From: a virus
Taxonomy: Duplodnaviria > Caudoviricetes
Reading direction: 5' to 3' (one strand)
DNA length: 64,000 nt
Virus record (IMG/VR): IMGVR_UViG_2890388907_000005
Location: 1-64,000 of that record
Shown here: one piece after another, positions 5,107 to 63,626 of the stretch
How positions within the stretch are numbered: the stretch's first letter is position 1
Layout: each line of letters begins with the position of its first letter
Notes under the pieces: model-generated
What the model was told of the DNA's origin: nothing
Seen by the model: only the letters and a program-made list of their open reading frames with translations
Databases searched by the model: none
Translations under genes and position numbers: made by a program

Positions 5107-5161
5107 TGCAAGGCTCCTTTCAGGAGGGGGATCATGTCCTCCGGCGCGTCGGCGCCGGGTC

Positions 5162-25979: not shown

Positions 25980-26224
25980 CAGTGCATTCCTTCTGGGGAG
26001 GACCGGAGGATCTGGTCGATGGAAGCGATCTTGTCGTTGGCGCACAGCCTGCCGGCCTTTTCGGCCAGGGCGGCGCGCAGGAGGGCGCCCTGAGTGACCG
26101 GCGCGGGGCCGGTCCAGCCGCTGCAGGGCGTCAGCATGTCGGCGGGGACCGCAACAGGCCCGGCGGCCGGATCAGGGCCACAGGCGGCGGGCAGCAGGCA
26201 GCAGGCGAGGATCAAGCGGCGCAT
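25979..26224 (-). CDS. o-spanin (Rz1-like lipoprotein)
   Basis: Lipobox LPAAC, Pro-rich, overlaps the 3' end of the i-spanin gene. Confidence 0.75.
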   Translation of the reverse strand: MRRLILACCLLPAACGPDPAAGPVAVPADMLTPCSGWTGPAPVTQGALLRAALAEKAGRLCANDKIASIDQILRSSPEGMH

Positions 26225-26483
26225 CGGCCCCCTCCGTCTCTTGGATGTCCCGGTCGAAGGCCGCCGCATCGCTGACGATCCGCTCCAGCCGCTCGATATG
26301 GGCGCGGTGGACTTGGGCCGCGGCCTCGAACGCCTCGACACGCGCCTCCGTCTCCCGCAGGGCGACCGTCAGGGCGCCCGCCCGCCGCTGCTGCCAGAGC
26401 CCGAAGCCCAGCAGCAGAAGCATGCTGGTCAGAACGGCGCCGACCGCCAGCAAGCGCGCCTTGGCGAGCAGCGCCACGAACAT
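26172..26483 (-). CDS. i-spanin (Rz-like)
   Basis: N-terminal TM followed by coiled coil; follows the endolysin. Confidence 0.75.
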   Translation of the reverse strand: MFVALLAKARLLAVGAVLTSMLLLLGFGLWQQRRAGALTVALRETEARVEAFEAAAQVHRAHIERLERIVSDAAAFDRDIQETEGADAPLDPRLLPAARRLWP

Positions 26484-26947
26484 CAGGCCGCCCCCATCTG
26501 CTTCAGCCAGCCGGGGACGTAGAACCCGGGGCAGGCCTTGGCCGCGTATTGGTTGTGGCCGCTCACCCGCTCGATGCGGGTGAGGCGCTTGAGGCGCGCG
26601 ATCTGTTCGAGCAGCGCCTTCGCCTGGGTGTCGGTGAAATGGTCGCCGAAACTGTCCTCGGCCGAAGACGCGCCGCCGCCGATAAGGCAGATCCCGAGCG
26701 TGCCGTTGTTGTGGCCGACGACATGGGCGCCGATCTCGGTCAGCCCGCGCCCGGCGGCGACGGTGCCGTCGCGGTCGATGACCAGATGATAGCCGATGTC
26801 GCGCCAGCCGTTGTCCTCGACATGCCAGCGGCGGATCTCGGCCACCTTTTCCGAGGTCCGCGCCTTCGCCATCCAGCTGCGCGTCGTTGCGGAGCAATGG
26901 ACGATGATTTCCTTCACCGGGTAGCGTTTGGAGCCCTGAAAGATCAC
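26483..26947 (-). CDS. endolysin, T7-lysozyme-like amidase
   Basis: IIVHCSAT, IRRWH, GWRDIGYH, GAHV.GHN, GHNQYAAKACP. Confidence 0.92.
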   Translation of the reverse strand: MIFQGSKRYPVKEIIVHCSATTRSWMAKARTSEKVAEIRRWHVEDNGWRDIGYHLVIDRDGTVAAGRGLTEIGAHVVGHNNGTLGICLIGGGASSAEDSFGDHFTDTQAKALLEQIARLKRLTRIERVSGHNQYAAKACPGFYVPGWLKQMGAA

Positions 26948-26948
26948 G

Positions 26949-27341
26949 TCAATCCTCCTTGACGATGGGGGGGAGAACGCGGTCGATGACGCGATCGGCG
27001 ACGCGGTCGGATCGCGCCTCGACCAGCCCGGCGACCCGGAGGGCCATCCGAGTGATGCGGCGGGAGAAGAAGCCGGTGATCGCCATGATCGCCTGCACCG
27101 GGGCGTTGGGCAGCCAGATCGGGATGGCGATGGCGGCGAGGTGGGAGGCGAGGAACGCGCCCAGCATCACGAGCCACAGCTCGCGCTGGTCCTGTTCCGG
27201 GTCGGACCGCATGGCGAAGGCGGCCCCGGCCAGCGCCAGGAACATCCCGCCGATCCACTGATGTGGGGCAAAGGTGATGCCGAGCCCCGCCAAGGCGAGG
27301 GTCAGCCAGTCTTTCGCAAAGTCGGCGGCCTGATCCCGCAT
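26949..27341 (-). CDS. putative holin
   Basis: Several TM segments, GAGGAG SD, directly upstream of the endolysin. Confidence 0.7.
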   Translation of the reverse strand: MRDQAADFAKDWLTLALAGLGITFAPHQWIGGMFLALAGAAFAMRSDPEQDQRELWLVMLGAFLASHLAAIAIPIWLPNAPVQAIMAITGFFSRRITRMALRVAGLVEARSDRVADRVIDRVLPPIVKED

Positions 27342-27378: not shown

Positions 27379-27393
27379 CGCACTTCCTATGCG
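27379..27393 (-). promoter_or_regulatory. GGA-loop leader hairpin (lysis operon)
   Basis: CGCAU-AGGAA-GUGCG. Confidence 0.6.
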
Positions 27394-39400: not shown

Positions 39401-41309
39401 CCAGCATGGTCTTCGACGGCTTCTTCGCCCGGCGGATCGCTTCATCGACGGTGGCGAGGCGCGAAGCGGCCTGCTCGGGCGACAGCGCGTCGATGTCGGC
39501 GGCTGGATCGCGCGGCGTCTCCGCTCGCCCCTTCGGTGCGGCCTGCTGCGCCAAAGCGCCCGGCGCCGGCACCTGCGGCGCAGGGCCAGGCGCGTCGGCG
39601 CCCGGTGCGGGCTTCGCCTTCTTCGCCGCCTCCGCGGCGGCATCGGCACGGCGCGCCGCATTCAGGGAGATGTCGAAGGCCTCCGGGGTCAGATCGACCT
39701 CGCGCCCCTCGATCCTGACGATGGCGCTGCCGCCGTCCTCACGCTGGAAGACGCCGTCGACGATCGAGCCTTTCTCGTCCATCAGCCGCACCGCCGCCCC
39801 GGGCTTCATGTCGGGGAAGGCCGGAACCGGTTCCACCTCGGGAACGGGGGTCAGATCGGGGGCAACGGTTGCGGCGCGGCCGATCGGGCCGGCCGGAGCG
39901 GCATCGGGCGGCAGCGGCGCCGCACCGATGTCGAAGACGTCGGACCCCGCTTCCTGGGGAGGGGCGGAAGCGGGGTCCATCCCGCCGGCGGTCCCGGCGC
40001 CTGCAGGATTCGGTGAGGGGCGCTCGCGCAGCGTCGGATCGCTGACCGGGCCAGCGCCGAAAATCGTGCCGCCGCGGTTCGGCGCGGGAAGGGCGAGCCG
40101 CGCCGGGGGCGCCTCGGCATCCCGCTGGCGCCCCTGAGCCGCCCCGACAACCGCGCCTGGCCCGGCACCGCCCATGGCGCCGAGGGCGAAGTCGGCGAAG
40201 GTGCCTTCGGTCAGAGAGGCGTCGTCTCCGGTGACGGTCTGCGCGCCGGCGCGCGCCGCCATCGACTCCGCCACCTCCTGGGCACCCTCCTCGATCCCCG
40301 AAAGACCGCCGATTCCCAAGGCGCGGGCGGCAACCCCGCGCGATGCCAGCGCGGAGACGGGCTTGTTCAGGATGCGCTCGGTGACGGCGCCGCCGATGGC
40401 GGCCGGAACCGCCTGAGCCACCCCGCCGGCGGCTTCGGCCATGGTGGTGACCCGCGAGATCGCATCTTCGACGGAGGCGCCCGACGCGATGGCGTCGCGG
40501 AAGACCGCGGAGCCTTGTTCCAGTGCGGCGCGGCCCTCGGAGGTGCCCGCAAGCGCCTCGACATGCTCGCGGCCGGCATCCATGCCTTCCCCGGCGCCCA
40601 TGGCGGCGCCCGCGGCCATAGCCGCAGCCGGGCTCTTGGTGGCCAGCGCCACCGCAACCATGGGCAGGAAGGAACCGGTGGCCTGGGCGGCATGCAGGGC
40701 GACCCCGCGCAGCGAGGGGTCTTCGCCCAGCGTCCAGGTGGAGGGCTTGGTAATGTCGCCGTCGATGCCGGTCCCGGCCAGCGCGGCCTTACCCCGATCC
40801 GAGACACCTTCGGCCAAGGCGTCGCCGCCGCTCTGCACCCATTCCCCGGCCCGCTTCGCCAGCTCACGCGCCTTGGTCTGATGCGGCAGCAGCTGGCCGC
40901 CCGATCCGACGAGTTCGGCCCCCAGCCCGAGTCCCTTGATCGCCGCGCCGGCGCCCTGCAGGGCGCCCCCGGCGACCTGACGGCCCAGATCCCCGACAAG
41001 GCTCCCCTCGTCGGTCGCCGGAGGCGCCTCGGATGCGGCGCGCGGGTAGAGTTCGTCGGCGAGATCATAGGCCCGGTTCAGCACCGGCGCCGGAAGGACA
41101 TCCTCCAGCGTCTCGCCCGCATCCAGCCGCCCCCGCAGCGCCGCGGCTGCGCGTTCAGCATCGACGCCGGCCTCCTCGATCGCCATGAGGACGTTGGCGG
41201 GGATTTGCGCCGACGAGGCCAAGGCCTCCACGCGCTGCCGCCTGATCGCCGGGTCGGAGGCTTCAGGAATAGAACCCGCGGGGCCGAAGCCGAACGGAGT
41301 GGTGGCCAT
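27432..41309 (-). CDS. giant DarB-like polyvalent virion protein (PPase-like, N6-adenine MTase, SNF2 helicase, zincin, PRTase, PLxRFG)
   Basis: DYGYIRGTTGADGDHVD/FDEHKVMLGF; VLEPAMGVGNF and IGNWPF; HEVGTGKT, DESH, EQRNGRGERQGN; HEIIH; LLDDTLTQGGT; YFPLARFG. Confidence 0.92.
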   Translation of the reverse strand: MATTPFGFGPAGSIPEASDPAIRRQRVEALASSAQIPANVLMAIEEAGVDAERAAAALRGRLDAGETLEDVLPAPVLNRAYDLADELYPRAASEAPPATDEGSLVGDLGRQVAGGALQGAGAAIKGLGLGAELVGSGGQLLPHQTKARELAKRAGEWVQSGGDALAEGVSDRGKAALAGTGIDGDITKPSTWTLGEDPSLRGVALHAAQATGSFLPMVAVALATKSPAAAMAAGAAMGAGEGMDAGREHVEALAGTSEGRAALEQGSAVFRDAIASGASVEDAISRVTTMAEAAGGVAQAVPAAIGGAVTERILNKPVSALASRGVAARALGIGGLSGIEEGAQEVAESMAARAGAQTVTGDDASLTEGTFADFALGAMGGAGPGAVVGAAQGRQRDAEAPPARLALPAPNRGGTIFGAGPVSDPTLRERPSPNPAGAGTAGGMDPASAPPQEAGSDVFDIGAAPLPPDAAPAGPIGRAATVAPDLTPVPEVEPVPAFPDMKPGAAVRLMDEKGSIVDGVFQREDGGSAIVRIEGREVDLTPEAFDISLNAARRADAAAEAAKKAKPAPGADAPGPAPQVPAPGALAQQAAPKGRAETPRDPAADIDALSPEQAASRLATVDEAIRRAKKPSKTMLDLRARLAAKVPPPEDMPAPPAAPAKAARNPVAPITTPPEQRMQPDMLGGREVSEAETASREKRRKEWGRFLAIAEGGKSSDDMLLDGREVLIRPGRVIVRAGRGASDQDRRIDTEGLDRDAIASATRGAMREMDRVAPVDMGEGNARSANVDDGAAVDQGAARRGDDNPGGSAAGAQGAAIGADDPGNRPGGADPQDGLVDAAGTGEPAGPLTGGGESAVAEAAKAADPAPTEAQKEAGNYRKGHARWKGFDLSIENPKGGTRSGVGADGAAWEVTMPADYGYIRGTTGADGDHVDFYMGPDEASDKVWIIDQKDAETGAFDEHKVMLGFASASEAEIAYLGGFSDGKGRRRLGGITAMDVPGFKTWLAGGGPSKAAATSEAPTYPYEGVEVENVRAKAAVLRGLPKDRPPQVPGVSLKWDEKEGGFIFARKHADAVLQAAYVEEDRIAAEAGKPARPAPAPARPKPAAPAPAPAAPPVLDDRREQKRRDAIEAGRKAGRAGAMREPPAWLEGDPIADDWRAGYAEGAAQRGVPAAAAPDQPAPAPAAPAAAEPAPAYGASNKLVSADRAAELRERLKAKLGSQINSGIDPEILAIGAELAVFHIEAGARRFADFARAVAADLDTTPTKLRPYLRSWYNGARDMMEDNEISIDGMDDTAAVRAAIQNLEALDTPAGEFPVSPEPAEPDTVATQPQAGTTPDGEGSGAGTGEVGEGGEPDPDGPSAQHRAGDATGEVDDRDLGGAEPGAPSGDEGVGRGDRPRARSRRKDAGRGAGLPEKRDEPVRRAAGSGEGLGDVRPGSDQPSAPGRLNYHITDPDSLFAGGPKARFAKNRRAMEVFEAVSDAGREPSPEEMDAMAGFIGWGSFGQELFQGSWAYPRPKEGWKEEDAWLREHLGKDAWASAQESIINAHYTDPPTVEAIWDAVRAMGFKGGRVLEPAMGVGNFFGMMPRDLEQNSQLTGIELEKTTGGIAKLLYPRANIRVMGYEKSRVADGFYDLVIGNWPFANIKVPDRRYDRLTPSLHDYFFLKALDQVRAGGLVVGITSAFSMDGQKNRVIRNHLAKNAELVAAYRLPSGAFEKYAGTRVVTDIIILRKRAEPKASAEGERWVQSVPWTSPAGQEIHVNQYFLDNPSHVLGELTTGHGTTYGKAGMIVNRPADLAARLKAIASALPADAYQPARRGKEPRFVATTTRDRILSITRGDDGNLYQVQGDNMARLEDVAKIATKSATETAKRMAEIGRLIEVRRAADAVMEADRAGAADAEAKRKTLKLAYDGFVKAHGPIGDSFALSVLKKLRDPNAGLVAALENGDGTPAAIMTKAVVRAAQKLDNPSIREAFVIARNESAILDIERVAELAKQPAETVIADLLDSKAIYRTPGGGYETSDRYLAGNVRVKLAAAREALDGGEDMAASVAALEAVQPPDVPYFQIEARFGADWVDAGINRAFIIETLGLANPDENDVKLTRAMTGWRVEFSDRVAHMPGASDITGAPLPGRRGTGLSLARFFEATLNTQTITVTYEDQDGTYKDTRATETANQKAADLRQKFGAWLWSEPERRVEAERAYNEAMNNTATPQIDGSFLEFPGMALTRGDEPFNLRQHQANAIWRGILNQRGIYGHEVGTGKTITMTGIAVESRRFGLARKPLLIAHNANSAAVAAEAQDTYPGAKILYINNLSPATIDTELARIATDDWDLIVIPHSLLDRLALTHDTLMVMAEEEIAAYEREAIAAAADDGFSLSVEDMDDPEKIKKMRLGVTAKEMVKARKNLLNQIEKQAQRASREGAISFEKLGVDMILVDESHEFKKPPLATRMQVKGLNLGTSNKSLALRFLTSYVKSQRNGTGVHVFTGTPITNTLAEIYHQMFYAMDDVMRAAKVDTWDGFFKAFADTISDVELTSTGEFENVERLAAFINVSELRQLAGQFMDIVFASDMPEFKPRATADGKTMRSKDLTDADRDFLENGRTEKPQGRPYKKIINDIGPMGGDQRRILDEVIYYARAFKQANGKQRREIMRGGGPDSPIVFNNVPNRASMDTRLQEPDAEDHPLSKANRAVRRIAQIYLDQPMATQVLFMDEGYSSETVSTRTDADGNKTRTKKRKFNLADDIVAKLVAKGVRREEIAIVAGGVSAEEKKAIADAMNALKIRVVIGQTKTLGVGVNMQKYLRAMHHLDAPWMPGDLEQRNGRGERQGNTWNTVEEYRYLTEGLDGRRWQVLAIKERFIKAFLRAKEGVRVIEGDATDDAEAMDGGSLSDTLSEAAGDPRLMLVSKLNKAVERLQARERIHVAGIADATRRIRQITAQTEALEKTLPPLRNDAAHVAGIRAAGTFSATVDGKRFDERAPAEVAIAEFLAKAATRMGKGSTEIVPVEVNGFAIRLEKPSYSYRVEDVSIDIIRKSERRVGKMTLPSIEAAIRRIADAVSDSERLIDENGAMLARLERAQDEPFQQAGDLAKKQAQRDAILADMEANPVPAPGWLRAGAPLDTLIYVDGEERVVTGHRWLATGWFVSTEQGDVPYMEVRSESGVPLYDERAFEAPEISEGSKMRRGDEAAEAAAEMRDRPVVATPGGDELAEADLAGITRDLNADLKAHGLDQKVTVRAVRLLLGASGVEVKGTFRTAGGGRIDVAAGDDARGVMRHEIIHALRSERLWNRPLGLFRPEEWAALERAARADAEIMDWVRTRYPDLTDAKQAEEAVAELYRLWAQGREATGPAGRALARIRAFVEAVANLLRGRGFVSAAMTMEQIARGEIGGRGPQGPGGSRRAAGADMGAEMRGRVSIPRVIIAGELASVSSHPDYAAAKAGDLAAATRLAVDKVTDDLVAQVRAALGDAKPLIVPVVAEEATGRNKIPRAAAEVLAARLGLEPATGIGQTNAPHRTALGGLDRIFAQPVFNGPVEPGRDYLLLDDTLTQGGTFATLAAHIEAGGGRVIGAVALTGKQYSATLTLSPETLSRLRERHGDLEPDFIAATGHGFDSLTESEARYLANYKSADAVRVRVLDEGRRRGGGNHTGDASGSSELRAGLIPSRDRFRGTLGRIDRQSVSRWVSSIITDRMAAENLSLLALVPGRPLFAEMGKHLNGARRYLRVKDEMDALRNQWHSRSAGVAEKWYDLAAKDPAANAALMDLMHRSTQAGVDPTGPDTWNSAWLDRARDAISRYGDDAPLWAKDQVEYAARRRRAYARISEMYQALPEAHRALYGEVMREYDRLGNDFERAIVENIEKATKIAMKRAEKEYRREMRRIADEGLEAEERAAAEAEAKERLDKVKLRGGWGSGARMKELRRQFESNRLKGPYFPLARFGDYFVTVRDTEGKVISFSRFETEAKQAAHVKEMEASHPGRVEHGLLAKRGGLRDQVDPTFVADIETMLAGADVSAEVMDMIWQRWLETLPDQSIRTSKIHRKGREGWNRDALRAFSHHMFHGAHQLARLKHGIDLEDAVEDAFDEAAVSADRNRMVALVNEMNRRKEWTMNPTGSGWSAAASSLAFVWYLGVSPAAAIVNLTQTTVIGPAMMRAAFARTSLGDIVGALGQAAKDFGRGRGASWKDQWSVENADIGDAEKAAMAEGYRRGVIDKTQAHDLAAVAESGVEFNPWREKWMRRIGWGFHHAERFNREITYLAAYRLARGEGVPHDLAIDRAADLTWRIHFSYQNSDRPRMMQGDWPKLFLQFRQFTVNSLYRLFRDAHQSLHGASAEERREARVQLVGVTLSMMAHAGITGTWGYGLVMGLLALFFPGDSDDLEEWLQDALLAEKDTPGAAAWNFAMGAALNGVPGQVTGIALSERIGMPNLWFRPPDRDLEGQDMVQHYVNEALGPTVGILFSMGRGAQNVADGDYARGIEALVPKFARDVIRAGRYAAEGVTTRNGDLIVEDVSPWGLLLQANGFTPARIAERYDINSRLKNKEAEVIEERKRLHRRAGDAIRAGDAIPDGVLDAIRDFNARWPEYPITSDTIRQSVQARQRSSERNEGGVSLNQKLDRRLREGLAPAIYN
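30332..30529 (-). CDS. possible nested +1-frame peptide after the PRTase domain
   Basis: C-terminal part LTPSEFESLMKDDAEAAEIIRAMLR is protein-like with GC-rich third positions; start unclear. Confidence 0.35.
   Translation of the reverse strand: MATSNQTSSPPQATASTPSPSPRPDTSRIINPLTPSEFESLMKDDAEAAEIIRAMLRDPASYGRG
36971..37300 (-). CDS. nested +1-frame gene (109 aa, TnpV-like pattern)
   Basis: GC3 bias lies in the nested frame while the host frame is low-complexity; stop sits at the MTase domain boundary. Confidence 0.65.
   Translation of the reverse strand: MEKAAAQALAKWAKVESRTLMDHPHNIGPGTPLEKWMIETWEAQNPGLHQAMKEWGAVTALAHVLVERMLDAERDYLKSGMNPSDARQEAVKDWAMFDPEATSPLPPGA
38765..38968 (-). CDS. nested +1-frame gene (67 aa)
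   Basis: GGGGGAAGGAA-ATG; MLDLPMWMTARQSIKALLAAGMITPEEA...; stop just before the PPase-like domain. Confidence 0.6.
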   Translation of the reverse strand: MLDLPMWMTARQSIKALLAAGMITPEEARLARKALRSERTIQGTDPVAPILKMVWLTQLAPASLQVH

Positions 41310-41335: not shown

Positions 41336-41358
41336 GGCTGACACATCCTATGGCAGCC
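41336..41358 (-). promoter_or_regulatory. GGA-loop leader hairpin (giant protein)
   Basis: GGCUGcCAU-AGGAU-GUGuCAGCC. Confidence 0.6.
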
Positions 41359-44075: not shown

Positions 44076-45034
44076 GCCGCCACCCCCATGGGTTTCGGCT
44101 TCGTCTTGCCCGCCTTCTTCTGGGTGAGGGCATCGACCTTCTTGGCCAGCTGCTGGACCGCGCCCATGGTGACGCCCATGGCGGTGATCGGGTCGATGGT
44201 GGTGCCGTCGCCGACGCCGGTGGCTGCGGCGAAGTCCTCGGCATAGGGGCCGACATGCTCGCCCTCGTCGGCGACGCCCGCCTTGTAGCGCCATTTCTCC
44301 ACCGGCATCTTCTCGACCGCGGCCAGGGCATCGAAGGGGCGTTTATCCTCCTTCACCTTTTCCGAGGACATGAAGGCGCCCGCCATCATCCCCAGCGACC
44401 CGAACATCTGCATCTGGCTCTGCGCCGCCATCTGGGAGGACTGCAGCTCCTGCTGATACTGGGTGTTCAGCAGGCTTCCGGCCTGGTTGTAGCCCTGCAT
44501 CGCGCCGTTGGCGCCGGCGCTGACCGCGCCATTGGAGAGCCCCATGGAGGTGGCCGGGTTGACGGCCAGACCCGCCCCCATGTTGATCGCGTTCGCCATT
44601 TTGGCGTCGGCTTCGGCTTCGACGGTGCGGCGGGACATATTCGCGGCGCCCGCCGAGGCAAGCGCGGTGTCGGTGGCGCCCTTCTGGGTCTCCGCGGCGT
44701 AGCGCCCGGAGGTCGGATCGACCCCCATCGCCATCATCGACCGGCTGCGCTGCCCGGCGGCCAACGCGCTCTGGTTCTGCACATCGGCGACGGCCTGATC
44801 GGCGACGCTCTGCTTGCGTTCCGCCGAGTCCCAGCCTTGCGCCTCGGCGATGTATTGGTCCTGCAGGGGCTGGAAAACGGTCTGCTCGCGCTCCCGATCC
44901 TCAAGGGCCCAGCTGTTGGTGATCTCGGCCTGCGACTTCATGAAGTCGAGGAATTCGGCGCCGGTTCTCGCCGAGATCATCGCGGCCTGACCGATCTGCG
45001 GATCTGCCTCGGGTGCGTCGTAGCTGTTGCCCAT
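44072..45034 (-). CDS. virion protein with C-terminal peptidase S74-like domain
   Basis: MSSEKVKED...VEKMPVEKWRYK...HVGPYAEDF...GAVQQLAKKV. Confidence 0.75.
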   Translation of the reverse strand: MGNSYDAPEADPQIGQAAMISARTGAEFLDFMKSQAEITNSWALEDREREQTVFQPLQDQYIAEAQGWDSAERKQSVADQAVADVQNQSALAAGQRSRSMMAMGVDPTSGRYAAETQKGATDTALASAGAANMSRRTVEAEADAKMANAINMGAGLAVNPATSMGLSNGAVSAGANGAMQGYNQAGSLLNTQYQQELQSSQMAAQSQMQMFGSLGMMAGAFMSSEKVKEDKRPFDALAAVEKMPVEKWRYKAGVADEGEHVGPYAEDFAAATGVGDGTTIDPITAMGVTMGAVQQLAKKVDALTQKKAGKTKPKPMGVAA

Positions 45035-45483
45035 CAGTGGCCTCCTTCCAGCCAGGTGCATTCTTCGCGCCTCATCCCGAACAGGATGGCATCCTCGCCG
45101 GTGAAATATCCGCCGCGGAGGCGCGCCTCGAACTGAAATCCGGCGCGCAGCGCCGCGATCTGCGCGGGATGGTTGCTCACCGCGGTCAGCGTCGTCATCC
45201 GGCGGCACCCGCGATGCAGGAACACATAGGCGCCCACCAGCTTGAGGATGCCGCGATCCGCCCAGCGCCGCGATCCGTTCGAGGCGGTATCGAGGGTGCA
45301 GGCGCCGTTCATGAAGCAGCTGGCCGTGATCACCGCGACGATCTGGCCGTCGTCGTCCACGACTCCCATCGGGACCGCGTCGGGCGGCAGCCGGCCGGGG
45401 GCGAGCCCAAGGCGTTCCTCCGCCCAGGCGCGCAGCGGCGCGACGAGATCGGCTCCCATGATGAGGTCGAGCGGCATGGACAT
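45034..45483 (-). CDS. GNAT family acetyltransferase
   Basis: YVFLHRGCRRMTTLTAVSNHPAQ...AGFQFEARLR...GEDAILFGMRREEC. Confidence 0.8.
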   Translation of the reverse strand: MSMPLDLIMGADLVAPLRAWAEERLGLAPGRLPPDAVPMGVVDDDGQIVAVITASCFMNGACTLDTASNGSRRWADRGILKLVGAYVFLHRGCRRMTTLTAVSNHPAQIAALRAGFQFEARLRGGYFTGEDAILFGMRREECTWLEGGH

Positions 45484-45500: not shown

Positions 45501-45519
45501 GCGGCACGTCCTATCCCGC
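45501..45519 (-). promoter_or_regulatory. GGA-loop leader hairpin (ejection operon)
   Basis: GCGGgAU-AGGAC-GUgCCGC. Confidence 0.55.
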
Positions 45520-54922: not shown

Positions 54923-56026
54923 TCAGACGATCGCGTTGGGATCGCGGCAGTAGGTATCCAGCGCGCAGCAGCCGAAGTCGCGGCCGTTGAACCGGGTCTT
55001 CTTCATGCCCATGATCACGCCGCAGTAGATTTCGACCTGGTTGTCGGCATCCACCAGCTTCTCCACCCACGTCATCCGTGCGCCGTTGCCGGCGCTGCCG
55101 TAGGCGACGACACCGGCCTGCCGGCCCAGCAGCAGCCCGCGCGCCGCGGGCAGGTTGCCGCCGACGCCATAGTCGCCGAAGCGGCGCACCGATTCATGCT
55201 CATGAAGGACGAGGTTCGAGATCATGCCCAGACCGCCCTTGCAGATCGGGGACTTCCGACCCTCCGAGGTCGCCAGCGACTGCTGGATCTTCGACCAGGA
55301 GAGATCGCCGGTCTCCACCCGCATGTCGTAGGCCTGGAACTTCGTCATCAGCACGATGAAGTGCTTGGACCCCTCGACCGTCACCGGGCTCATGCGGATG
55401 ACGTCGGGGTTGGTCGCGTTCATCATCGTCGGCTTCACCGCGACGCGCTCAAGGAAAGCCACGTTCATCTTGTCGGCGGCGGTGAGCGTCGCCTTCGAGG
55501 TGGCGGCACCGGCGTAGAGCAGGTGGTCGGCATCCGGCGCGTGGATCGGGTTGCCGGCGAAGGGCTTGTTGAAGACGGCGTCCTGGTTGATCGCGCTGAA
55601 GTTGGCGTCGCCCGAGAGGTAGACGAAATAGCCCTCGTCGATCCACTGCGCCACATATTCCGAGGTGCGGTCCCGGGCGATGCGGCGGAGGTCGTGCAGG
55701 AGGCGCTTGCGGCTCATGCGGCCGGCGGCGGAGGCGCCTTTCCGGGCCTGGTCGATCTTCACCTCGTCGGTGTAGAAGGTCAGCGCCTCGGCCGAACCCT
55801 CGACGCGGTCATCGCCCAGCGTCATGCCGCCGCGCAGACGCATCGACAGGTCGAACTGGACGGTGTCGCCCGCCTCGTCTTCCAGATCGACCTTGCGCTC
55901 GATGATGTTGTTCTCGCCGGTCCCGACGAAGCGCGACCAGTAGCTCTGCTTTTCGGTGTCGGTGGCCAGCGAGGTGGCCCAGCGACGAACCGCTTTGGGG
56001 TCATTGACGCCGATCACGGTCTGCAT
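54923..56026 (-). CDS. major capsid protein, N4-gp56 family
   Basis: NDPKAVRRWA, AGDTVQFDL, GDDRVEG..EAL.F, IDQAR, GMKKTRF..RDFG. Confidence 0.9.
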   Translation of the reverse strand: MQTVIGVNDPKAVRRWATSLATDTEKQSYWSRFVGTGENNIIERKVDLEDEAGDTVQFDLSMRLRGGMTLGDDRVEGSAEALTFYTDEVKIDQARKGASAAGRMSRKRLLHDLRRIARDRTSEYVAQWIDEGYFVYLSGDANFSAINQDAVFNKPFAGNPIHAPDADHLLYAGAATSKATLTAADKMNVAFLERVAVKPTMMNATNPDVIRMSPVTVEGSKHFIVLMTKFQAYDMRVETGDLSWSKIQQSLATSEGRKSPICKGGLGMISNLVLHEHESVRRFGDYGVGGNLPAARGLLLGRQAGVVAYGSAGNGARMTWVEKLVDADNQVEIYCGVIMGMKKTRFNGRDFGCCALDTYCRDPNAIV

Positions 56027-56057: not shown

Positions 56058-56078
56058 CCAGGCACGTCCTATGCTTGG
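56058..56078 (-). promoter_or_regulatory. GGA-loop leader hairpin (capsid operon)
   Basis: CCAaGCAU-AGGAC-GUGCcUGG. Confidence 0.6.
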
Positions 56079-56121: not shown

Positions 56122-56292
56122 CTAGGGATCGCAGCGCGAGACCCGGGTAATGGGCATCTCGCGCGGCGCTTCGATGATGATGGTGGCGGCGCGCTGTCCG
56201 ATCTGAACGAACTTCAGGACGATGTCATCGCCGATGCGGATTTCCGGCGTGGAGCCGTCATTGGTGGGGACGACTCGGGTTTTCCACGACAT
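56122..56292 (-). CDS. csrA: CsrA/RsmA-like RNA-binding protein (56 aa)
   Basis: EIRIGDDIVLKFVQIGQRAATIIIEAPREMPITR aligns by eye with CsrA [42 protein letters not shown]; N-terminus divergent. Confidence 0.72.
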   Translation of the reverse strand: MSWKTRVVPTNDGSTPEIRIGDDIVLKFVQIGQRAATIIIEAPREMPITRVSRCDP

Positions 56293-56314: not shown

Positions 56315-57250
56315 TCAGAGTTTGAGGAAGCGTTCGATCTGGTCGGGGGGCAGCCGTGCGAGCGCGGCTTCCATTTCCAGCGGGTTCTTGATGCGGTCGA
56401 TGGCCGCGAACGCGCTGTCCTCCAGCTCGGCATTGCCGTCCGAATTGAAGCCCGCGAGGGTCGGCGGGGCATCCGGCCGCGGGTCGCGCCGCTGCTCGAT
56501 CTTGGGACCGGTCTGGCGCTTCGCGGTCACGGTGGCGGCCGAGGGCAGCGCCTGACCGGTCAGCGCCTGATGCCGGGTGGCATAGATGCTGTAGGCCAGC
56601 TGGATCTGCTGGTCGCGGGTGAGGCTGACATTGGCGGTGTTGCCGGTGACCTCGCGGAGCGTGGCATCCCAGCTGTCGCGATGGGTGTCGGTCCACAACT
56701 CGGGGGCCAGTTCCTGGAAGGCGCCGAGGCGGGCGTTCCAGTGGTCGACCATCTTCTTGTTGTGCTCGTCCATCTGGCGCTGCGCCATCTCGATGGCATG
56801 CTGCGCCTTCGCCTGTTCGGCGCTGAGGGCGGCCTGCTGCGCCTGCATTTCGGCGCGGGTCAGGCTGCCATCGTCATAGCGGTCGTAGAGCGCGACCAAC
56901 TCCTCGTCGATCTTCGTGATGCGCGCCTCGACGGCGGAGAGATCGGGCACCGGGGGTTCGCGGGAGGGTTCTTCCGGCTCCGCCTCCGCCCCGGTCGCGG
57001 TTGCCTCCACCGCAGCGGCAGCGGCAGCGGCGGCGGCAGCCGCAGCCGGGGGCGCGGCACCGACTGCGGGCTCTGCGGGCTCTGCGGGCTCGGCAGCAGC
57101 GGCTGCGGCGGCTGCGGGAGGTGCGATCACGGGATCATCCCCGGTCGACAGTGCCGCGATCTCGGCATCGGTGAAACCGACATCCTTGAGCGCGGCGGCG
57201 TCGAGCTGGTCGGGAGGGAGGTGGTCGTTGTCGGACTGATTGAGGCGCAT
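56315..57250 (-). CDS. scaffold protein
   Basis: Acidic, Ala-rich coiled coil between portal and capsid; PPTLA motif. Confidence 0.75.
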   Translation of the reverse strand: MRLNQSDNDHLPPDQLDAAALKDVGFTDAEIAALSTGDDPVIAPPAAAAAAAAEPAEPAEPAVGAAPPAAAAAAAAAAAAVEATATGAEAEPEEPSREPPVPDLSAVEARITKIDEELVALYDRYDDGSLTRAEMQAQQAALSAEQAKAQHAIEMAQRQMDEHNKKMVDHWNARLGAFQELAPELWTDTHRDSWDATLREVTGNTANVSLTRDQQIQLAYSIYATRHQALTGQALPSAATVTAKRQTGPKIEQRRDPRPDAPPTLAGFNSDGNAELEDSAFAAIDRIKNPLEMEAALARLPPDQIERFLKL

Positions 57251-57251
57251 G

Positions 57252-59516
57252 TCAGGCTCCTTGGCTCACTGGCGGGACGGTCGCGGGCGGTGCCGCGGTG
57301 GGAACGGGCGGCATGGCGCCTTGGGCAGCCATGTCGGGGGGGAGACCGGCGGCGAGCCGGGCATCCCCGAGGATCTGGTCGGCTGCGGCGGCGACTGCCG
57401 GGGCGCCGGCGATCTGCAGCGCCGCCTCCATGGCCGCGGTCATCTGCGCGATCAGGTCGGTGGCGGTCGCGGCCTCGGCCTTCGAGGCTTCGGCGGTGAT
57501 CTTCCGCGCCTTGGCTTCCACTTCGGCCAGCGCCGCCATGGCCTGCCGCTTCTGCATCTCGGCGGCCTGGGCCTTCTGTTCCGCCATCTGCATCTGTTCG
57601 GGCGTCGGATTGTTCGGGTCCGCGTCGGGGTCTTCGACGCCGGTGATCTGGCGGATGCGCTTCACCAGTTCGTCGCGCTTCGGCACATCCATGGCCTCGA
57701 CGATGAGGTCGAGCATCTGGACGACGATCTGCGGGGCCGTCGCGGCGAGGCGTCCACCGAGGTCCAGCAGGGCTTCGGCCTGCGCCTGGCGCACGGTGAG
57801 GCGCCATTCCTCCTCGCCCAGCACGAAATCCGCCTTGAAGGCGGCGATGGCGTTCTCGGGGGCGCCGTCGTTGATCGGGACGAAGGCGGGATTGCCGCGG
57901 GCGTCGGTGATCCTGATCTCGTCGGCCTCGGTGTAGAACTGCTCGCAGAGGATGATGGTCTTCTCGCCATGGATTTGGCGGGAGCGGCGGAGGTTGTCGA
58001 AGAACGTGGAGGTGGCCAGCGCGCCCTGATCCTGGCGCGCGATGATCGCCTTGCCCGACTTCGCGTTGGTGGATCGGCCCATGTTCTCGTCGGTGACACC
58101 GCCGATGGACTGGATCATCTGGGCGTCGCGGCTCATCAGGTCGATGTGTGCGGCGGCGATGTTGGTGTCGCTCTGAACCACGGGTGCGGGCTGGCCCGAC
58201 TTGTATTCGATGACCGCGTCGGGCCGGCCGGCCTCGTCCCGCAGCGTCTCGATGTCGTCGACCGCGCCCTCCTGGACGGTGACCCGGGTGGTGGAGAGGT
58301 GATGCAGGGCCTTGGCGGCGCGCCGGTTCAGATCGCGCTGGATGTCGCGCACCCCGCGGATCAGCCCGTAGGGCATGCCGTCGCGGGCGCGGCGGTATCC
58401 CCAGATCGGCGTGAAGGGGTAGCGGTTGTGCCGATAGGGACTGCGGCGGATGTCGAGCAGGCCCGCATCGGTGAACAGGGCGACATGCACGATCTGGCGG
58501 GGCTGGATCGACAGCGAGGCGAGCCCGGCGTTGAGTTCGCCGACATGGCCCGGGCTCCACGGGTCGAACAACTCGCCGGCGAACTGGCCGCCGCGGATGA
58601 CGGCGGCATCGCCGACGACGCGCTTGAACCAGCACTCGATCACGCGGACCCGGTCCCGGCTCGCGGACCCAGAGGTGAGGGTGTGACCGCGCGACGCGCC
58701 GAAACCGAAATGCTCGGCCTCCGCATGGTCCATGGGCTCGTCGCCGAGTTCGTCGAGCATGAACAGGCCGGCCGAGGCCTGCGAGATGCTGCGTTCCACC
58801 AGCCCGCGCCGATCCGGCCACATCCCGTGGGCGATGTCGGCGTCCAGCCATTTCGACCGCATCAGGTAGCGGGCGTCCTGCATGTCATAGGCGGTCGAGG
58901 TGGAGTCCCAGAGCATCGAGCGCCACGACTCCGACCGCAGCATCACCGGGCCGGGGGTGTCGGGGCCGGCCTGACCGCCTTCCAGCCAGCCCAGCCCCGC
59001 CTTCACGGCCGAGGCGAATGCGTCGGAGGTGACATGATCGAAGCCGTTGGCATCGCTGACATGCTTCAGCAGCTGCGTCTTGCGTTCCGCCGCCTGTGTC
59101 CCCGCCTTCTTGCGGCTGAGGACGCGGTAGTCCATCGGGGCGCGCCGCTGGGTGCCCAGCACCCAGTTGACGGAGGTCTGGATCATATTGAAGACCAGCG
59201 GGGCTTGTCCGCGGGCGGCGAGGATCTGCAATTCCTCGTCGGTGAACTGGATGTGGTCGTAGAAATCCTCGTCAAGCGCCATTTCGAGCCGGTTTTCGGC
59301 CTGGCGGTCCAGCTCGCGGATATAGTGGCCCATGAGATTGACGTGGATGCGCTCGGCCTGCTCGCTGTCGAGGAACGAGGCCTTGGCCCGGCGGGCGGCT
59401 TCGGGGCTGCGGGCATCGGCGGGAAGATAGGTGTCCCCGGCAACCCCCTTCCGGCGCCCCGAATAGATCAGGGAGCCGGAAATCTCGTGGCGGGCGCGCT
59501 TTTCAGGATCAAACAT
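57252..59516 (-). CDS. portal protein (P22-like)
   Basis: DEDFYDHIQF, RGQAPLVFNMI, AVKAGLGWLE, PYGLIRGVRDIQRDLNRR, SGKAIIARQDQG. Confidence 0.9.
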   Translation of the reverse strand: MFDPEKRARHEISGSLIYSGRRKGVAGDTYLPADARSPEAARRAKASFLDSEQAERIHVNLMGHYIRELDRQAENRLEMALDEDFYDHIQFTDEELQILAARGQAPLVFNMIQTSVNWVLGTQRRAPMDYRVLSRKKAGTQAAERKTQLLKHVSDANGFDHVTSDAFASAVKAGLGWLEGGQAGPDTPGPVMLRSESWRSMLWDSTSTAYDMQDARYLMRSKWLDADIAHGMWPDRRGLVERSISQASAGLFMLDELGDEPMDHAEAEHFGFGASRGHTLTSGSASRDRVRVIECWFKRVVGDAAVIRGGQFAGELFDPWSPGHVGELNAGLASLSIQPRQIVHVALFTDAGLLDIRRSPYRHNRYPFTPIWGYRRARDGMPYGLIRGVRDIQRDLNRRAAKALHHLSTTRVTVQEGAVDDIETLRDEAGRPDAVIEYKSGQPAPVVQSDTNIAAAHIDLMSRDAQMIQSIGGVTDENMGRSTNAKSGKAIIARQDQGALATSTFFDNLRRSRQIHGEKTIILCEQFYTEADEIRITDARGNPAFVPINDGAPENAIAAFKADFVLGEEEWRLTVRQAQAEALLDLGGRLAATAPQIVVQMLDLIVEAMDVPKRDELVKRIRQITGVEDPDADPNNPTPEQMQMAEQKAQAAEMQKRQAMAALAEVEAKARKITAEASKAEAATATDLIAQMTAAMEAALQIAGAPAVAAAADQILGDARLAAGLPPDMAAQGAMPPVPTAAPPATVPPVSQGA

Positions 59517-61634: not shown

Positions 61635-62218
61635 CTCGTGCCCCCGGTGCGGCGCAGGGGCGCCTTCGACCCGCGGTCGACCAGCTGCTTGAACGCATCG
61701 GCGAAGGCGTTGGCGAGGCCTTCGTCGCGCTTGCTGAAGGCGCCGGTATGCTCGGCGAGCGCCATCAGGGCCTTGATCTTGTCGTGCAGCTTGATCTTGG
61801 TCTTACGGACGTAGATCGGGGCTTCTCCCGGTCCCTCGACGACGGTCTCGGTGCTGACCTCGGCGAGCGCGTCCAGATCGTCCAGCGGTGTGGAGGTGAG
61901 GTCGATGGCGGGCTGGCCATTGCCGTCGATGCTGATGAACTGGCGCATCGAGGCGAAACCGATCTTGGCCAGTTCCGCGATGACGCGATCCGCGTCGATT
62001 TCGGTTCTCTCCGCCCGGGAGGCCTTGCCGGCCTCGATCTGGGCGAGGACGCGCGGATCGCGCATCAGCTTGGACGCGGTCACGGCTGCGGACTCGGGCG
62101 CATATCCTGCGCGGATCGCGGCGGCGGTCTGGTTGAGGTCGAGCAGATACTCCCGGCAGAATGCTTTCTGCCGGTCGGTCATCGGGCGCGACTGATCCTT
62201 TGCGCTTGACCGCGGCAT
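61631..62218 (-). CDS. terS: terminase small subunit
   Basis: MTDRQKAFCREYLLDLNQTAAAIRAGY, KIKLHDKIKAL. Confidence 0.92.
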   Translation of the reverse strand: MPRSSAKDQSRPMTDRQKAFCREYLLDLNQTAAAIRAGYAPESAAVTASKLMRDPRVLAQIEAGKASRAERTEIDADRVIAELAKIGFASMRQFISIDGNGQPAIDLTSTPLDDLDALAEVSTETVVEGPGEAPIYVRKTKIKLHDKIKALMALAEHTGAFSKRDEGLANAFADAFKQLVDRGSKAPLRRTGGTS

Positions 62219-62364
62219 CCTGCCATGTCCCTCGCGGCGGTGTATCCGCCATTGCTGCTCAATATGCAGCACCAGAGGGCATTCGCGCAACAGGTGTAGA
62301 GGGGCCCAAGCGCCGCCCCCACCAGATGTTGCATGTTATGATTCATTAGCCTGCGACGCCGCCC

Positions 62365-63012: not shown

Positions 63013-63540
63013 TCAGGCATCCATTTTGGTGGCGGTGAGGCGGGGCGTGGTGATGCGGAGGTCGATCTTGGAGCGCCCCCGACGCGCCACGGTGGCATGG
63101 GCGCGGGCGAATGCGTCGTCCATCGACGCGGCGGTGATCGAGAAATCGGCGCGGCCCATGCGCCCGGTGCGGGTGCAGTAGGTGGCGGTGACGAGATAGA
63201 TCGCGGTGGCCTCGGTGGGGCCGGGCTCGGCCGGCGACGTGGCGACCCGCAGGTATTCCCGCAGGATCGCCGCGATGTCGTCGGTGGCCATGGACGGACA
63301 GTCGGCGCAGGGGCTGTAGCCGATCAGGTCTTCATAGAGGCGATCCAGCGCGGCGCGACGCCATTCCTCGAAGGTGAGGCCTGCCGTGTAGGCGGCGGTG
63401 GTGACCTCGAAGCATTTGACCAGATAGGCGTCATCGGAGCCCTCCCCGCAGGGGCTGGTCCGGCTGTAGATCGCGAGGGCCAGCGCCTCGGCGCGGGGAT
63501 CGTGGTCCGAGGGGTCGAAGTCGGTGATCGGGAGGGACAT
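63013..63540 (-). CDS. hypothetical protein
   Basis: AAGGAG SD; 175 aa. Confidence 0.65.
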   Translation of the reverse strand: MSLPITDFDPSDHDPRAEALALAIYSRTSPCGEGSDDAYLVKCFEVTTAAYTAGLTFEEWRRAALDRLYEDLIGYSPCADCPSMATDDIAAILREYLRVATSPAEPGPTEATAIYLVTATYCTRTGRMGRADFSITAASMDDAFARAHATVARRGRSKIDLRITTPRLTATKMDA

Positions 63541-63568
63541 CCTTGTCTCCTTGTGCTTGCGTTCTCTC

Positions 63569-63626
63569 TGTAGTTATATGTAGTCATAACCCATAGGTCA
63601 ACTACAGACTACTACAGGTGACTACA
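63569..63626. repeat. 10-bp-phased ACTACA operator array
   Basis: TGTAGT at 63569 and 63579; ACTACA at 63601, 63611, 63621. Confidence 0.8.

What the first reader, a model, noticed from the sequence alone, without database searches (positions are those of the whole stretch)
56122..56292. Phage CsrA-like protein with an apparent phage-internal target regulon
Seen: a 56-aa ORF between scaffold and capsid with the IGDD-beta-beta-AP..I.R pattern, including the Arg equivalent to CsrA R44. At least six GGA-loop hairpins sit at translation-relevant positions in this same prophage (next two findings). Established: CsrA/RsmA dimers bind GGA in hairpin loops (consensus RUACARGGAUGU); csrA homologues occur at this locus in Bcep22-like phages; canonical Csr systems are generally not found in Alphaproteobacteria. 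Inference: this protein regulates timing or stoichiometry of the phage's own capsid, ejection, DarB-like, lysis and terminase proteins rather than host metabolism. I do not know of such a circuit having been described.
Basis: partly seen in the sequence, partly recalled or inferred. Interest (0 to 1): 0.9.

Follow-up and report, generated by a model that had tools for sequence, protein, structure and literature searches.

The report
Phage CsrA-like regulator with leader motifs
A prophage carries a tiny CsrA-type RNA-binding protein just before its capsid gene, and a matching short RNA motif sits in front of four of its late operons, which points to a translation-control circuit built into the phage and not yet described.

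Summary
The ORF is real. Window 56122-56292 (-) encodes 56 aa that pass Pfam's CsrA threshold (33.5 vs 27 bits) and keep the R44-equivalent Arg. The monomer model's best PDB matches are all CsrA/RsmA/RsmE. It is the only CsrA hit in this genome; 0 of 42 same-order genomes have one. The slot (portal, scaffold-like, csrA-like, ~95-nt leader, capsid) is already annotated in Bcep22, Pavtok and RPZH3.

The claim of many "GGA-loop hairpins" is not significant: 3 of 10 prophage leaders against 395 of 2444 host leaders, p=0.21. A specific 10-mer, ATAGGANGTG, is. It has 14 copies genome-wide. Four lie on the sense strand 27-39 nt before the start codons of the capsid, GNAT, DarB-like and lysis operons; none of the other 10 is in a leader. 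Another first-stage note on this genome had listed the same four.

Relatives carry their own version (loop GGA, AGA or UGA) in the capsid leader and often the lysis leader. Across 48 related loci, the csrA-like gene never occurs without the motif. The motif pairs with the start region in 20 of 24 capsid leaders (4.1 expected).

Binding of the protein to the motif, and its direction of control, are inferred, not shown.

The parts
56122..56292 (-). csrA-like gene, 56 aa plus stop; the only CsrA-family hit in the genome
56027..56121 (-). 95-nt capsid leader: upstream hairpin, motif hairpin, second hairpin, SD GGAG
56058..56078 (-). motif copy 1 (core 13-mer at 56062-56074). It can form a local 4+3 bp hairpin with an AGGAC loop, or pair with the GUCC-N-AUGC of the capsid start region.
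   Evidence: (27.6 bits)
54923..56026 (-). major capsid protein gene (putative target 1)
45505..45514 (-). motif copy 2, 27 nt before the AUG of the acetyltransferase gene that heads the next operon
45034..45477 (-). 147-aa acyl-CoA N-acyltransferase-like gene (putative target 2), followed by tail-fibre-like genes
41342..41351 (-). motif copy 3, 32 nt before the AUG of the giant gene
27432..41309 (-). 4625-aa ORF (putative target 3), called DarB-like by position and size against Bcep22 gp75; no family search was run on it here
27380..27392 (-). motif copy 4 (13-mer, 0 mismatches to the pattern), 38-39 nt before the AUG of the first lysis-cassette gene
25979..27341 (-). lysis cassette (putative target 4): 130-aa ORF with no family, amidase endolysin 26483-26947, 103-aa ORF, Rz1-like 25979-26224
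56315..57250 (-). scaffold-like gene upstream of the csrA-like gene (phrog_8246, function unknown; called scaffold by position only)
57252..59516 (-). P22-type portal gene
62214..62224 (-). candidate fifth site: GGC-AGGAU-GCC hairpin upstream of, or overlapping an alternative start of, terS. A similar GCAGGAUGC lies upstream of terS in one relative (L124).
63536..63547 (-). candidate sixth site: GAC-AAGGAU-GUC over the AUG of the 175-aa gene, preceded by ACAAGGAG. Not tested in relatives.

Best explanation
The 56-aa ORF is a minimal, fast-evolving CsrA-family RNA-binding protein and a core gene of the head module of Bcep22-like podophages, not a host-directed 'moron'. I infer that its dimer binds a short leader motif. 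In this prophage the motif is (G)CAUAGGAYGUGC, with AGGAY able to sit in the loop of a 4-7 bp hairpin. It lies 27-39 nt upstream of the start codons of four late transcription units: capsid, GNAT/tail-fibre operon, DarB-like giant gene and lysis cassette.

In three of these four leaders the same nucleotides pair with the stretch between the ribosome-binding site and the AUG, so the leader can switch between a closed and an open form. Occupying the GGA would shift that balance and so set the timing or amount of capsid, giant-protein and lysis proteins from within the phage.

Shown here: family membership, the conserved slot, the motif's non-random placement, its conservation and co-occurrence with the gene, and the motif-to-start pairing with covariation.

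Inferred: that this protein binds the motif, and the sign of control. I lean to activation by opening the closed leader (about 55:45 over repression by bridging the motif and the SD).
For: 1. Family. Pfam CsrA is above threshold. The AF2 model has pLDDT 81.6. Foldseek ranks 1-10 are all CsrA/RsmA/RsmE at probability 0.98-1.00. VIA-align's top 7 are CsrA-family chains at Z 4.1-5.5, and the next row is 2.8.

2. Core gene. A csrA-like ORF lies directly upstream of the capsid gene in 26 of 48 related loci. These include phages of Burkholderia, Ralstonia, Pseudomonas, Erwinia and Klebsiella, and alphaproteobacterial prophages.

3. Motif placement.
- ATAGGANGTG has 14 copies in 4.05 Mb. Four are sense-strand leader copies here, 27-39 nt before the AUG.
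- None of the other 10 copies is in a leader.

4. Recurrence in relatives.
- Each relative repeats its own capsid-leader 12- or 13-mer exactly in another leader.
- This is the lysis leader in Pavtok and SopranoGao, and with one loop base changed in Itty13.
- Atu_ph08 has four exact copies, 23-29 nt before the starts of the capsid, lysozyme, giant and 386-aa genes.
- Second copies also occur in G065, G066, G067 and G068.

5. Co-occurrence. No locus has the csrA-like gene without the motif, and 18 loci have neither. In Atu_ph08 the gene stays behind the scaffold gene while the capsid and its motif lie 27 kb away.

6. RNA level.
- The inner 4 bp of the hairpin pair in 21 of 21 sequences, maintained through G-U wobbles.
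- Overall 81% of cells are paired against 69% in shuffles (0 of 500 shuffles reach it).
- Two outer pairs show compensatory changes.

7. Match to the consensus. AGGAUGU is identical to the 3' part of the SELEX consensus RUACARGGAUGU, with GGA preferred in hairpin loops (passages of PMC4347634).

8. Pairing with the start region.
- The NGA triplet pairs within -8 to +2 of the AUG in 20 of 24 capsid leaders, against 4.1 expected.
- In one search, N pairs as G-C in 13 of 14 GGA leaders, U-A in 4 of 5 UGA leaders and A-U in 3 of 6 AGA leaders.

9. Precedent. CsrA activates ymdA by destabilising an SD-sequestering structure (abstract of PMC7492729).

10. Fitness. Knock-down of a phage csrA homologue in PTXU04 reduces plaque size (passages of PMC11879866). 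PTXU04 is not among the 66 close capsid relatives in the phage collection.
Against: - No binding data of any kind exist.
- The structure-only model R1 finds only the capsid copy significant in the window. The lysis copy scores 13.5 bits (E 0.78), the GNAT copy 9.4 bits (E 7.4), and the DarB copy is not listed.
- GGA-loop hairpins as a class are not enriched.
- 14 of 23 family members lack Arg at the R44-equivalent position, and whole clades have AGA or UGA loops, which canonical CsrA is not known to bind. The trend 'Arg only with GGA' is weak: 8/1 against 6/8, p=0.036, kin not independent, and Pavtok breaks it.
- Gene and motif could both simply be traits of one clade, so the co-occurrence amounts to few independent contrasts.
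- The protein is only 31% identical to that of a relative whose capsid is 83% identical.
- Bcep22 and RPZH3 show the motif only at the capsid leader.
- Forcing AGGAN unpaired costs 8.6 and 11.3 kcal/mol in the capsid and GNAT leaders but 0.8 and 0 in the lysis and DarB leaders, and never fully frees the start region in silico.
- Cognate motif-start duplexes beat non-cognate ones only modestly: ranks 6, 8, 13 and 4 of 70.
Confidence: 0.55

Rival explanations
1. The leader motif is a self-sufficient cis-acting RNA device (a translational attenuator, processing site or 5' stabiliser) or is read by some other factor. The CsrA-like protein does something else, such as binding host or other phage RNAs.
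For: - The long-range motif-to-start pairing is the best-supported structural feature and needs no protein.
- Loops of AGA or UGA, and loss of the R44-equivalent in 14 of 23 proteins, do not fit canonical CsrA recognition.
- Host leaders offer plenty of generic GGA hairpins: 395 of 2444.
Against: - Within one phage the 10-13 nt motif is kept identical while its pairing register with each start region differs. This points to recognition of the sequence, not only of a helix.
- The gene is present in every motif-bearing record I could check.
- The motif matches the CsrA consensus core.
- No host leader carries the motif.
Confidence: 0.27
2. The repeated element works at the DNA level, as part of a family of internal late promoters or an operator just downstream of them.
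For: - The motif sits at the heads of transcription units after intergenic gaps.
- Bcep22 shows TATAGAAT in both the capsid and DarB leaders.
Against: - G-U wobble pairs keep the hairpin only on the sense RNA strand.
- There is covariation with the start region.
- Distance to the AUG is constrained (23-45 nt) while distance to the -10-like element varies.
- The Bcep22 DarB leader has the promoter-like box without the motif, so the two are separable.
- The consensus sigma-70 scan finds no promoter at any of the four leaders.
Confidence: 0.08
3. The CsrA-fold protein has become a structural or assembly factor of the head and no longer regulates RNA.
For: - It holds a fixed place between the scaffold-like and capsid genes.
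- JC1 gp47 was detected in purified virions by one unique peptide (passages of PMC9144972).
- Its sequence drifts fast, and the R44-equivalent is often lost.
Against: - One peptide is weak evidence, as the authors themselves say.
- The window's protein keeps the R44-equivalent and basic residues in strand 1.
- This reading does not explain the recurring motif.
Confidence: 0.07

Closest known systems
CsrA/RsmA/RsmE translational regulators (Pfam PF02599)
   Same: The Pfam match is above threshold. The predicted strand arrangement matches solved CsrA, RsmA and RsmE chains. The R44-equivalent Arg is present. The candidate target motif contains AGGAUGU/AGGACGU in a small hairpin loop near a ribosome-binding site.
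   Different: - Only 56 aa, ending 6 residues after the R44-equivalent, so the C-terminal helix is missing.
- It has a roughly 7-residue insertion after strand 1.
- The leucines at positions 2 and 4 of canonical strand 1 (recalled from memory, from no call) are not kept.
- No CsrB/Rsm-type sponge was found in the window and no FliW in the genome.
- The host lineage has no Csr system.
- The targets appear to be the phage's own late leaders.
Bcep22 gp54 'CsrA-like regulator', JC1 gp47, Pavtok gp9, RPZH3 ORF8 (annotated csrA in Bcep22-like phages)
   Same: Same slot (portal, scaffold-like, csrA-like, ~100-nt leader, capsid) and the same protein family by iterated HMM. The capsid proteins are 52-54% identical.
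   Different: In print these genes are treated as morons or as manipulators of the host (passages of PMC9144972, PMC7366521, PMC8450108). No cis motif or phage-internal targets are described in the passages I read. The window's protein is so diverged that tblastn and word-based searches find no relative.
CsrA activation of E. coli ymdA
   Same: The regulator binds a leader whose default fold hides the ribosome-binding site, and binding opens it (abstract of PMC7492729). The capsid and GNAT leaders here have that architecture.
   Different: That is a host global regulator acting on a host gene. Here the direction of control is untested, and opening is only partial in silico.
Host CsrA repression of the ColE7 lysis gene cel
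   Same: A CsrA-type protein controls a lysis gene of a mobile element (search listing and start of the abstract of PMC2896534).
   Different: There the regulator is the host's. Here the mobile element brings its own regulator into a host that lacks one.
Phage-encoded translational repressors of their own mRNAs (T4 RegA, T4 gp32, MS2 coat protein); recalled from memory, from no call
   Same: A small phage protein acts on the start regions of several of the phage's own messages.
   Different: The folds are unrelated. None is a CsrA-family protein, and none has a CsrA-type leader motif.

Membership tests
CsrA family (PF02599) | Profile match above the curated threshold | tested here: met
   33.5 bits against a cut-off of 27, E 4e-8, residues 17-50 on profile 11-44 of 53. 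The same hit appears in the whole-genome search.
CsrA family (PF02599) | CsrA subunit fold (five strands; C-terminal helix) | tested here: inconclusive
   The monomer model has pLDDT 81.6 with strands at 17-20, 24-31 and 35-41. Foldseek ranks 1-10 are all CsrA-family, but with E 0.07-0.3. VIA-align Z is 4.1-5.5 for seven CsrA-family chains, and the next row is 2.8. The outer strands are not modelled as strands in a monomer. The protein ends 6 residues after the R44-equivalent, leaving no room for the helix.
CsrA family (PF02599) | Interleaved homodimer | not testable with these tools
No dimer was modelled.
CsrA family (PF02599) | Arg at position 44, critical for RNA binding (its importance is recalled from memory) | tested here: met
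   Query R50 aligns with R44 of RsmE 2jpp. Across the phage family it is present in 9 of 23 members.
CsrA family (PF02599) | Specific binding to GGA in hairpin loops | not testable with these tools
   Only indirect evidence: the consensus-like motif in four leaders.
Complete Csr/Rsm system | Antagonist: CsrB/RsmXYZ-type sponge RNA or FliW | tested here: not met
   No Rfam family reaches its gathering score in the 64-kb window. There is no intergenic GGA-dense stretch in the window. FliW PF02623 is not found in the 100%-complete genome. The rest of the genome was not scanned for sponge RNAs.
Bcep22-like head-module csrA-like genes | Position between the scaffold-like and major capsid genes, with a leader of about 55-130 nt that carries the GCRYA-N-GA-(Y)-GYGC motif | tested here: met
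   Window layout. The same layout and motif occur in 26 of 48 related loci, and none has the gene without the motif.

The most novel reading that the evidence does not exclude
Bcep22-like phages, which infect at least ten host genera, carry a self-contained post-transcriptional timing circuit. A private CsrA-fold protein is made from the gene just upstream of the capsid gene. It recognises a clade-specific leader motif (loop GGA, AGA or UGA, co-evolving with the protein's strand-5 residues). It thereby opens otherwise closed start regions of the capsid, giant-protein and lysis messages. Capsid and lysis proteins would then be made only after portal, scaffold and the regulator have accumulated. 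This works without any host Csr system.
Probability: 0.3. Interest if true: 0.85.

Novelty: new variant of a known kind. Interest (0 to 1): 0.7.

Why it matters
In the papers I could read, phage csrA genes are treated as morons or host manipulators (PMC9144972, PMC7366521, PMC8450108). The one functional test reports only smaller plaques, with no mechanism (PMC11879866). If the protein reads the leader motif found here, it would be a phage-owned translational switch for capsid and lysis genes, conserved from Burkholderia and Klebsiella phages to alphaproteobacterial prophages.

This would explain why the gene holds a fixed place in the head module, even in hosts with no Csr system. It would offer a compact, portable protein-RNA pair with natural specificity variants (GGA, AGA, UGA). 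It also makes the question directly testable, because the candidate RNA sites are now named to the base.

Tried and rejected
- Close homologues by sequence. tblastn of the 56-aa protein against 50,697 phage records found nothing. The word-indexed protein search found only the protein itself. Full HMMER over 1.8 billion representatives gave 5 weak hits at E 7e-5 to 9e-4. Relatives had to be reached through the capsid gene and an iterated HMM built in scripts.
- PHROGs gave no family for the protein.
- Rfam gave nothing at gathering score in the window. Only two chance-level rows appear around the locus.
- The hairpin covariance model R1 does not independently recover the three secondary copies. 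Its second-best hit (47407-47431, +, 19.5 bits) is antisense inside a tail-fibre-like gene. I therefore do not claim that the local hairpin is common to all four sites.
- The generic GGA-loop hairpin enrichment test was negative.
- The sigma-70 consensus scan found no promoter at the four leaders. This neither proves nor excludes weak or phage-specific promoters.
- A sponge-RNA search by GGA density found only coding regions at the top.
- Public reads: no RNA holder is listed. One metagenome DNA run holds a small share (0.09) of the words.
- The PTXU04 phenotype cannot be transferred directly. No Escherichia record is among the 66 close capsid matches.
- I dropped 'Arg44 only with GGA loops' as a rule, because Pavtok has Arg with a UGA loop.
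- L040 was left out because my start-codon rule mis-set its start. Duplicate loci (11 of 48) are flagged. L042's csrA-like ORF was added by eye, below the HMM threshold. L027 was counted as adjacent after inspection: its csrA-like ORF is at 4702-4905 and the capsid starts right after it.
- 'Not in print' rests on the searches. Supplementary tables were closed and may list more phages, for example Table S7 of PMC7366521 and the PTXU04 supplements.

Papers, and what I saw of each: passages of PMC9144972, PMC7366521, PMC8450108, PMC11879866, PMC8545117 and PMC4347634. Outline and abstract of PMC7492729. Search listing with the start of the abstract only for PMC2896534 and PMC9928087.
Full report
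**What is at the coordinates**

Window 56122-56292 on the minus strand is an ATG-started ORF of 56 codons plus a stop. A codon-usage gene caller trained on this genome picks it, with an AGGA-type ribosome site (score 17.8, in the range of other small genes).

It sits in a minus-strand late module:
- terS, 61631-62182
- large terminase, 59976-61625
- P22-type portal, 57252-59516 (PF16510, E 1e-168)
- a 311-aa scaffold-like protein, 56315-57250 (phrog_8246, function unknown; 'scaffold' is by position)
- the 56-aa ORF
- a 95-nt gap
- the major capsid protein, 54923-56026 (PF13252, E 7e-50)

The wider element has a 4625-aa giant ORF (27432-41309), as Bcep22 has its DarB-like gp75.

**Is it CsrA?**

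- Pfam PF02599 matches at E 4e-8 and 33.5 bits against a cut-off of 27, over residues 17-50 and profile positions 11-44.
- Against solved structures the only sequence hit is RsmE (2jpp, E 0.95). The alignment ends with the query's Arg50 on Arg44.
- An AlphaFold2 monomer model built on a 19-row family alignment has mean pLDDT 81.6.
- Foldseek ranks 1-10 are all CsrA/RsmA/RsmE chains at probability 0.98-1.00, TM about 0.55-0.58 and E 0.07-0.3.
- VIA-align puts seven CsrA-family chains on top at Z 4.1-5.5, with 49-53 residues aligned. The next row is Z 2.8.

The protein is minimal. It ends six residues after the Arg, so it has no room for the C-terminal helix. It also has an insertion after the first strand.

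It is the only PF02599 hit in the 100%-complete 4.05-Mb genome, and there is no FliW. PF02599 was found in 0 of 42 genomes of the same genus, family or order, and in 2 of 18 others of the same class.

**It is a known slot, and a core gene**

Bcep22 annotates gp54 'CsrA-like regulator protein' directly before the major capsid gene gp55. Pavtok gp9 and RPZH3 ORF8 are annotated likewise. Itty13 and SopranoGao have unnamed 61-69-aa genes in the same place.

The window's protein is too diverged for ordinary searches. Using the capsid protein as a handle, I collected 31 IMG/VR loci, 9 genome loci and 8 phage-record loci. A script-iterated HMM then found a csrA-like ORF immediately upstream of the capsid gene in most loci with capsid identity of about 42% or more.

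The protein evolves fast. It is 31% identical to the L002 protein, whose capsid is 83% identical.

The papers I could read call the gene a moron or a host manipulator (passages of PMC9144972, PMC7366521, PMC8450108). JC1 gp47 was seen in virions by a single peptide. A csrA homologue of the unrelated coliphage PTXU04 gives small plaques when knocked down, and its authors state that the role of CsrA in a phage life cycle had not been tested before (PMC11879866).

**The hairpin claim**

As a class, GGA-in-loop hairpins (stem of 4 bp or more, at least 17 nt before the start) are not enriched. They occur in 3 of 10 late leaders of this prophage against 395 of 2444 host leaders (16%), Fisher p=0.21.

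What stands out is one specific sequence. ATAGGANGTG occurs 14 times in the genome on both strands. Six copies are in the first 75 kb of this contig. Four of those are on the sense (minus) strand in intergenic leaders:

| Copy | Gene that follows |
|---|---|
| 56063-56072 | capsid |
| 45505-45514 | 147-aa acyl-CoA N-acyltransferase-like gene heading a tail-fibre operon |
| 41342-41351 | giant DarB-like gene |
| 27381-27390 | first gene of the lysis cassette, followed by an amidase endolysin and an Rz1-like gene |

The motif ends 36, 27, 32 and 39 nt before those AUGs respectively. None of the other 10 genome copies is in a sense-strand leader. Eight lie inside genes of the opposite strand, and two are more than 2.3 kb from the next start.

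An earlier first-stage note on an overlapping window of this genome had listed the same four copies.

**Relatives**

The capsid leader carries the motif GCRYA-N-GA-(Y)-GYGC, with its 3' flank ending 26-44 nt before the capsid start, in 27 of 29 loci first examined. RPZH3 has a variant.

The loop triplet is GGA, AGA or UGA according to clade. Each phage repeats its own version elsewhere, on the same strand and in a leader:
- Pavtok and SopranoGao have an exact second 13-mer in the endolysin leader.
- Itty13 has a second copy there with one loop base changed, and a third copy before a 245-aa ORF.
- Atu_ph08 has four exact 12-mers, 23-29 nt before the starts of the capsid gene, a DUF847 lysozyme, the giant Snf2/DarB-like gene and a 386-aa gene.
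- G065 and G067 have a second exact copy before a 166-aa ORF. G066 has one before a 133-aa ORF, and G068 before a 114-aa membrane-type ORF.

An exact 13-mer recurring by chance in a 60-kb genome is expected about 0.002 times (my arithmetic).

Bcep22 and RPZH3 show it clearly only at the capsid leader. Bcep22's other exact copy lies inside the giant gene.

**Co-occurrence over 48 loci** (11 are duplicates, flagged)

| csrA-like gene next to capsid | Motif in capsid leader | Loci |
|---|---|---|
| yes | yes | 26, counting L027 after inspection |
| no | yes | 4 |
| no | no | 18 (Desulfobacula-type, 933W, H66 and others) |
| yes | no | 0 |

The four 'motif only' loci are L011, Atu_ph08, L041 and L045. 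In L011 the gene lies 3.4 kb upstream in the same record. In Atu_ph08 it still follows the scaffold gene while the capsid has moved 27 kb away. For L041 and L045, weak matches (E 2e-4) exist elsewhere in their assemblies.

But the gene-plus-motif set is essentially one clade, so the independent contrasts are few.

**RNA or DNA?**

The inner four pairs of the local hairpin are standard pairs in 21 of 21 distinct capsid leaders. They vary only through A-U, G-U, G-C and U-G, C-G changes, which keep pairing on the sense strand only. Overall 81% of cells are paired against 69% in shuffles (0 of 500 shuffles reach it), and slid controls give 20-52%.

In the nine closest leaders, RNAalifold extends the stem to seven pairs, with two compensatory pairs.

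A sigma-70 consensus scan finds no promoter in any of the four leaders. A TGnTA-type box does lie 15-25 nt upstream of each motif, and Bcep22 has TATAGAAT in two leaders. One of those two (DarB) lacks the motif, so the box and the motif are separable.

No Rfam family matches.

**The motif also pairs with the start region**

Independent MFE folds of each leader put the motif's N-G-A opposite the three bases just before, or overlapping, the AUG.
- Examples are GGAC with GUCC in the window, GGAUGUGC with GCACAUCC in Bcep22, and CAUGAGUG with CACUCAUG in L012.
- In one search, across 25 capsid leaders, N pairs as G-C in 13 of 14 GGA leaders, U-A in 4 of 5 UGA leaders and A-U in 3 of 6 AGA leaders. 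That is three Watson-Crick pair types at one position.
- At least two of the three bases pair within -8 to +2 of the AUG in 20 of 24 leaders. The expectation is 4.1 when the intervening sequence is shuffled (L040 omitted, see Tried and rejected).

In the window, three of the four leaders (capsid, lysis, GNAT) fold this way. The DarB leader hides its start with a second GCCAUAG copy instead.

Cognate motif-start duplexes are better than the 70 non-cognate ones, but modestly so: ranks 6, 8, 13 and 4.

Forcing AGGAN single-stranded, as a bound protein would, costs the closed fold 8.6 kcal/mol (capsid), 11.3 (GNAT), 0.8 (lysis) and 0 (DarB). It only partly exposes the start region.

**Reading**

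The motif is a real, conserved, RNA-level regulatory element of late leaders in this phage group. It is kept identical within a phage although each copy pairs with its own start region in a different register. That argues that something reads the sequence itself.

The csrA-like protein is the obvious reader, for four reasons:
- The family binds GGA in small hairpin loops.
- AGGAUGU equals the 3' part of the SELEX consensus (PMC4347634).
- The gene is present wherever the motif is.
- It is encoded right next to the universal target.

A CsrA that opens an SD-sequestering leader has a precedent in ymdA (PMC7492729). Host CsrA control of a plasmid lysis gene has one in ColE7 (PMC2896534, listing only).

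Against this reading, 14 of 23 family members lack the R44-equivalent Arg, and the AGA and UGA loops are not canonical sites. Arg goes with GGA in 8 of 9 cases, and non-Arg proteins split 6 GGA to 8 other (p=0.036, kin not independent). This is at most a hint of co-evolution.

I put the binding hypothesis at about 0.55, with the sign of control open. I lean to activation because the default fold of the capsid leader closes the start of the phage's most abundant protein. In this prophage the SD is itself a GGA 31 nt from the motif, which would also suit classical two-site repression.

**The two extra sites**

GGC-AGGAU-GCC at 62214-62224 lies upstream of terS, or over an alternative in-frame start of it. 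It has a look-alike (GCAGGAUGC) upstream of terS in one relative, whose terS is 50% identical, and none in two others.

GAC-AAGGAU-GUC over the AUG of the 175-aa gene at 63536-63547 matches the CsrA consensus very well. I did not test it in relatives. I list both as candidates only.

**Verdict**

- The ORF and its family are confirmed. The slot is already known.
- It is sharpened here to a defined motif with a defined alternative pairing.
- In six literature searches I found no description of such a circuit.

Noticed in passing
window 47407-47431 (+): An exact 13-mer GCGCAGGATGTGC lies on the strand antisense to the 1438-aa tail-fibre-like gene. It is the second-best hit of the hairpin model (19.5 bits, E 0.028). 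It could be chance or an antisense element.
   Followed up: no
L027 about 5010-6000 (IMG/VR contig): The capsid gene of this relative is interrupted after about 80 codons by roughly 1 kb that carries its own ORF with Cys-rich, HNH-like features. This may be an intron or homing element inside a capsid gene.
   Followed up: no
L014 10305-10457; L036 (phage H66) 7223-7459: One IMG/VR relative has a second csrA-like ORF 4 kb downstream of its capsid gene. F116-like phage H66 has a csrA-like ORF (H66_0049) downstream of its capsid gene rather than upstream.
   Followed up: no
L034 3954-3965 (Atu_ph08, record about 40367-40378): The annotated capsid CDS of Atu_ph08 starts upstream of the leader motif. 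The homology and the motif suggest that the true start is about 36 nt downstream of the motif.
   Followed up: partly
window 63541-63625: The divergent intergenic region holds repeated ACTACA-type words between the 175-aa gene and a 48-aa plus-strand ORF.
   Followed up: no
window 46504-50820 (-): A 1438-aa protein with long Ala-rich, repeat-like stretches, probably a tail fibre. Its plus strand carries many long spurious ORFs because of the 67% G+C content.
   Followed up: no
L033 (Bcep22) 3918-3935 and record 47905-47925: The box TATAGAAT recurs in the capsid and DarB leaders of Bcep22 and looks like an internal late promoter. The window's leaders have a weaker TGnTA box at the matching place.
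   Followed up: partly
L102 (G066) about 34032-34055: The lysis-leader motif of this provirus is partly duplicated in tandem, with a GGGACGUGC repeat directly after the 13-mer.
   Followed up: no
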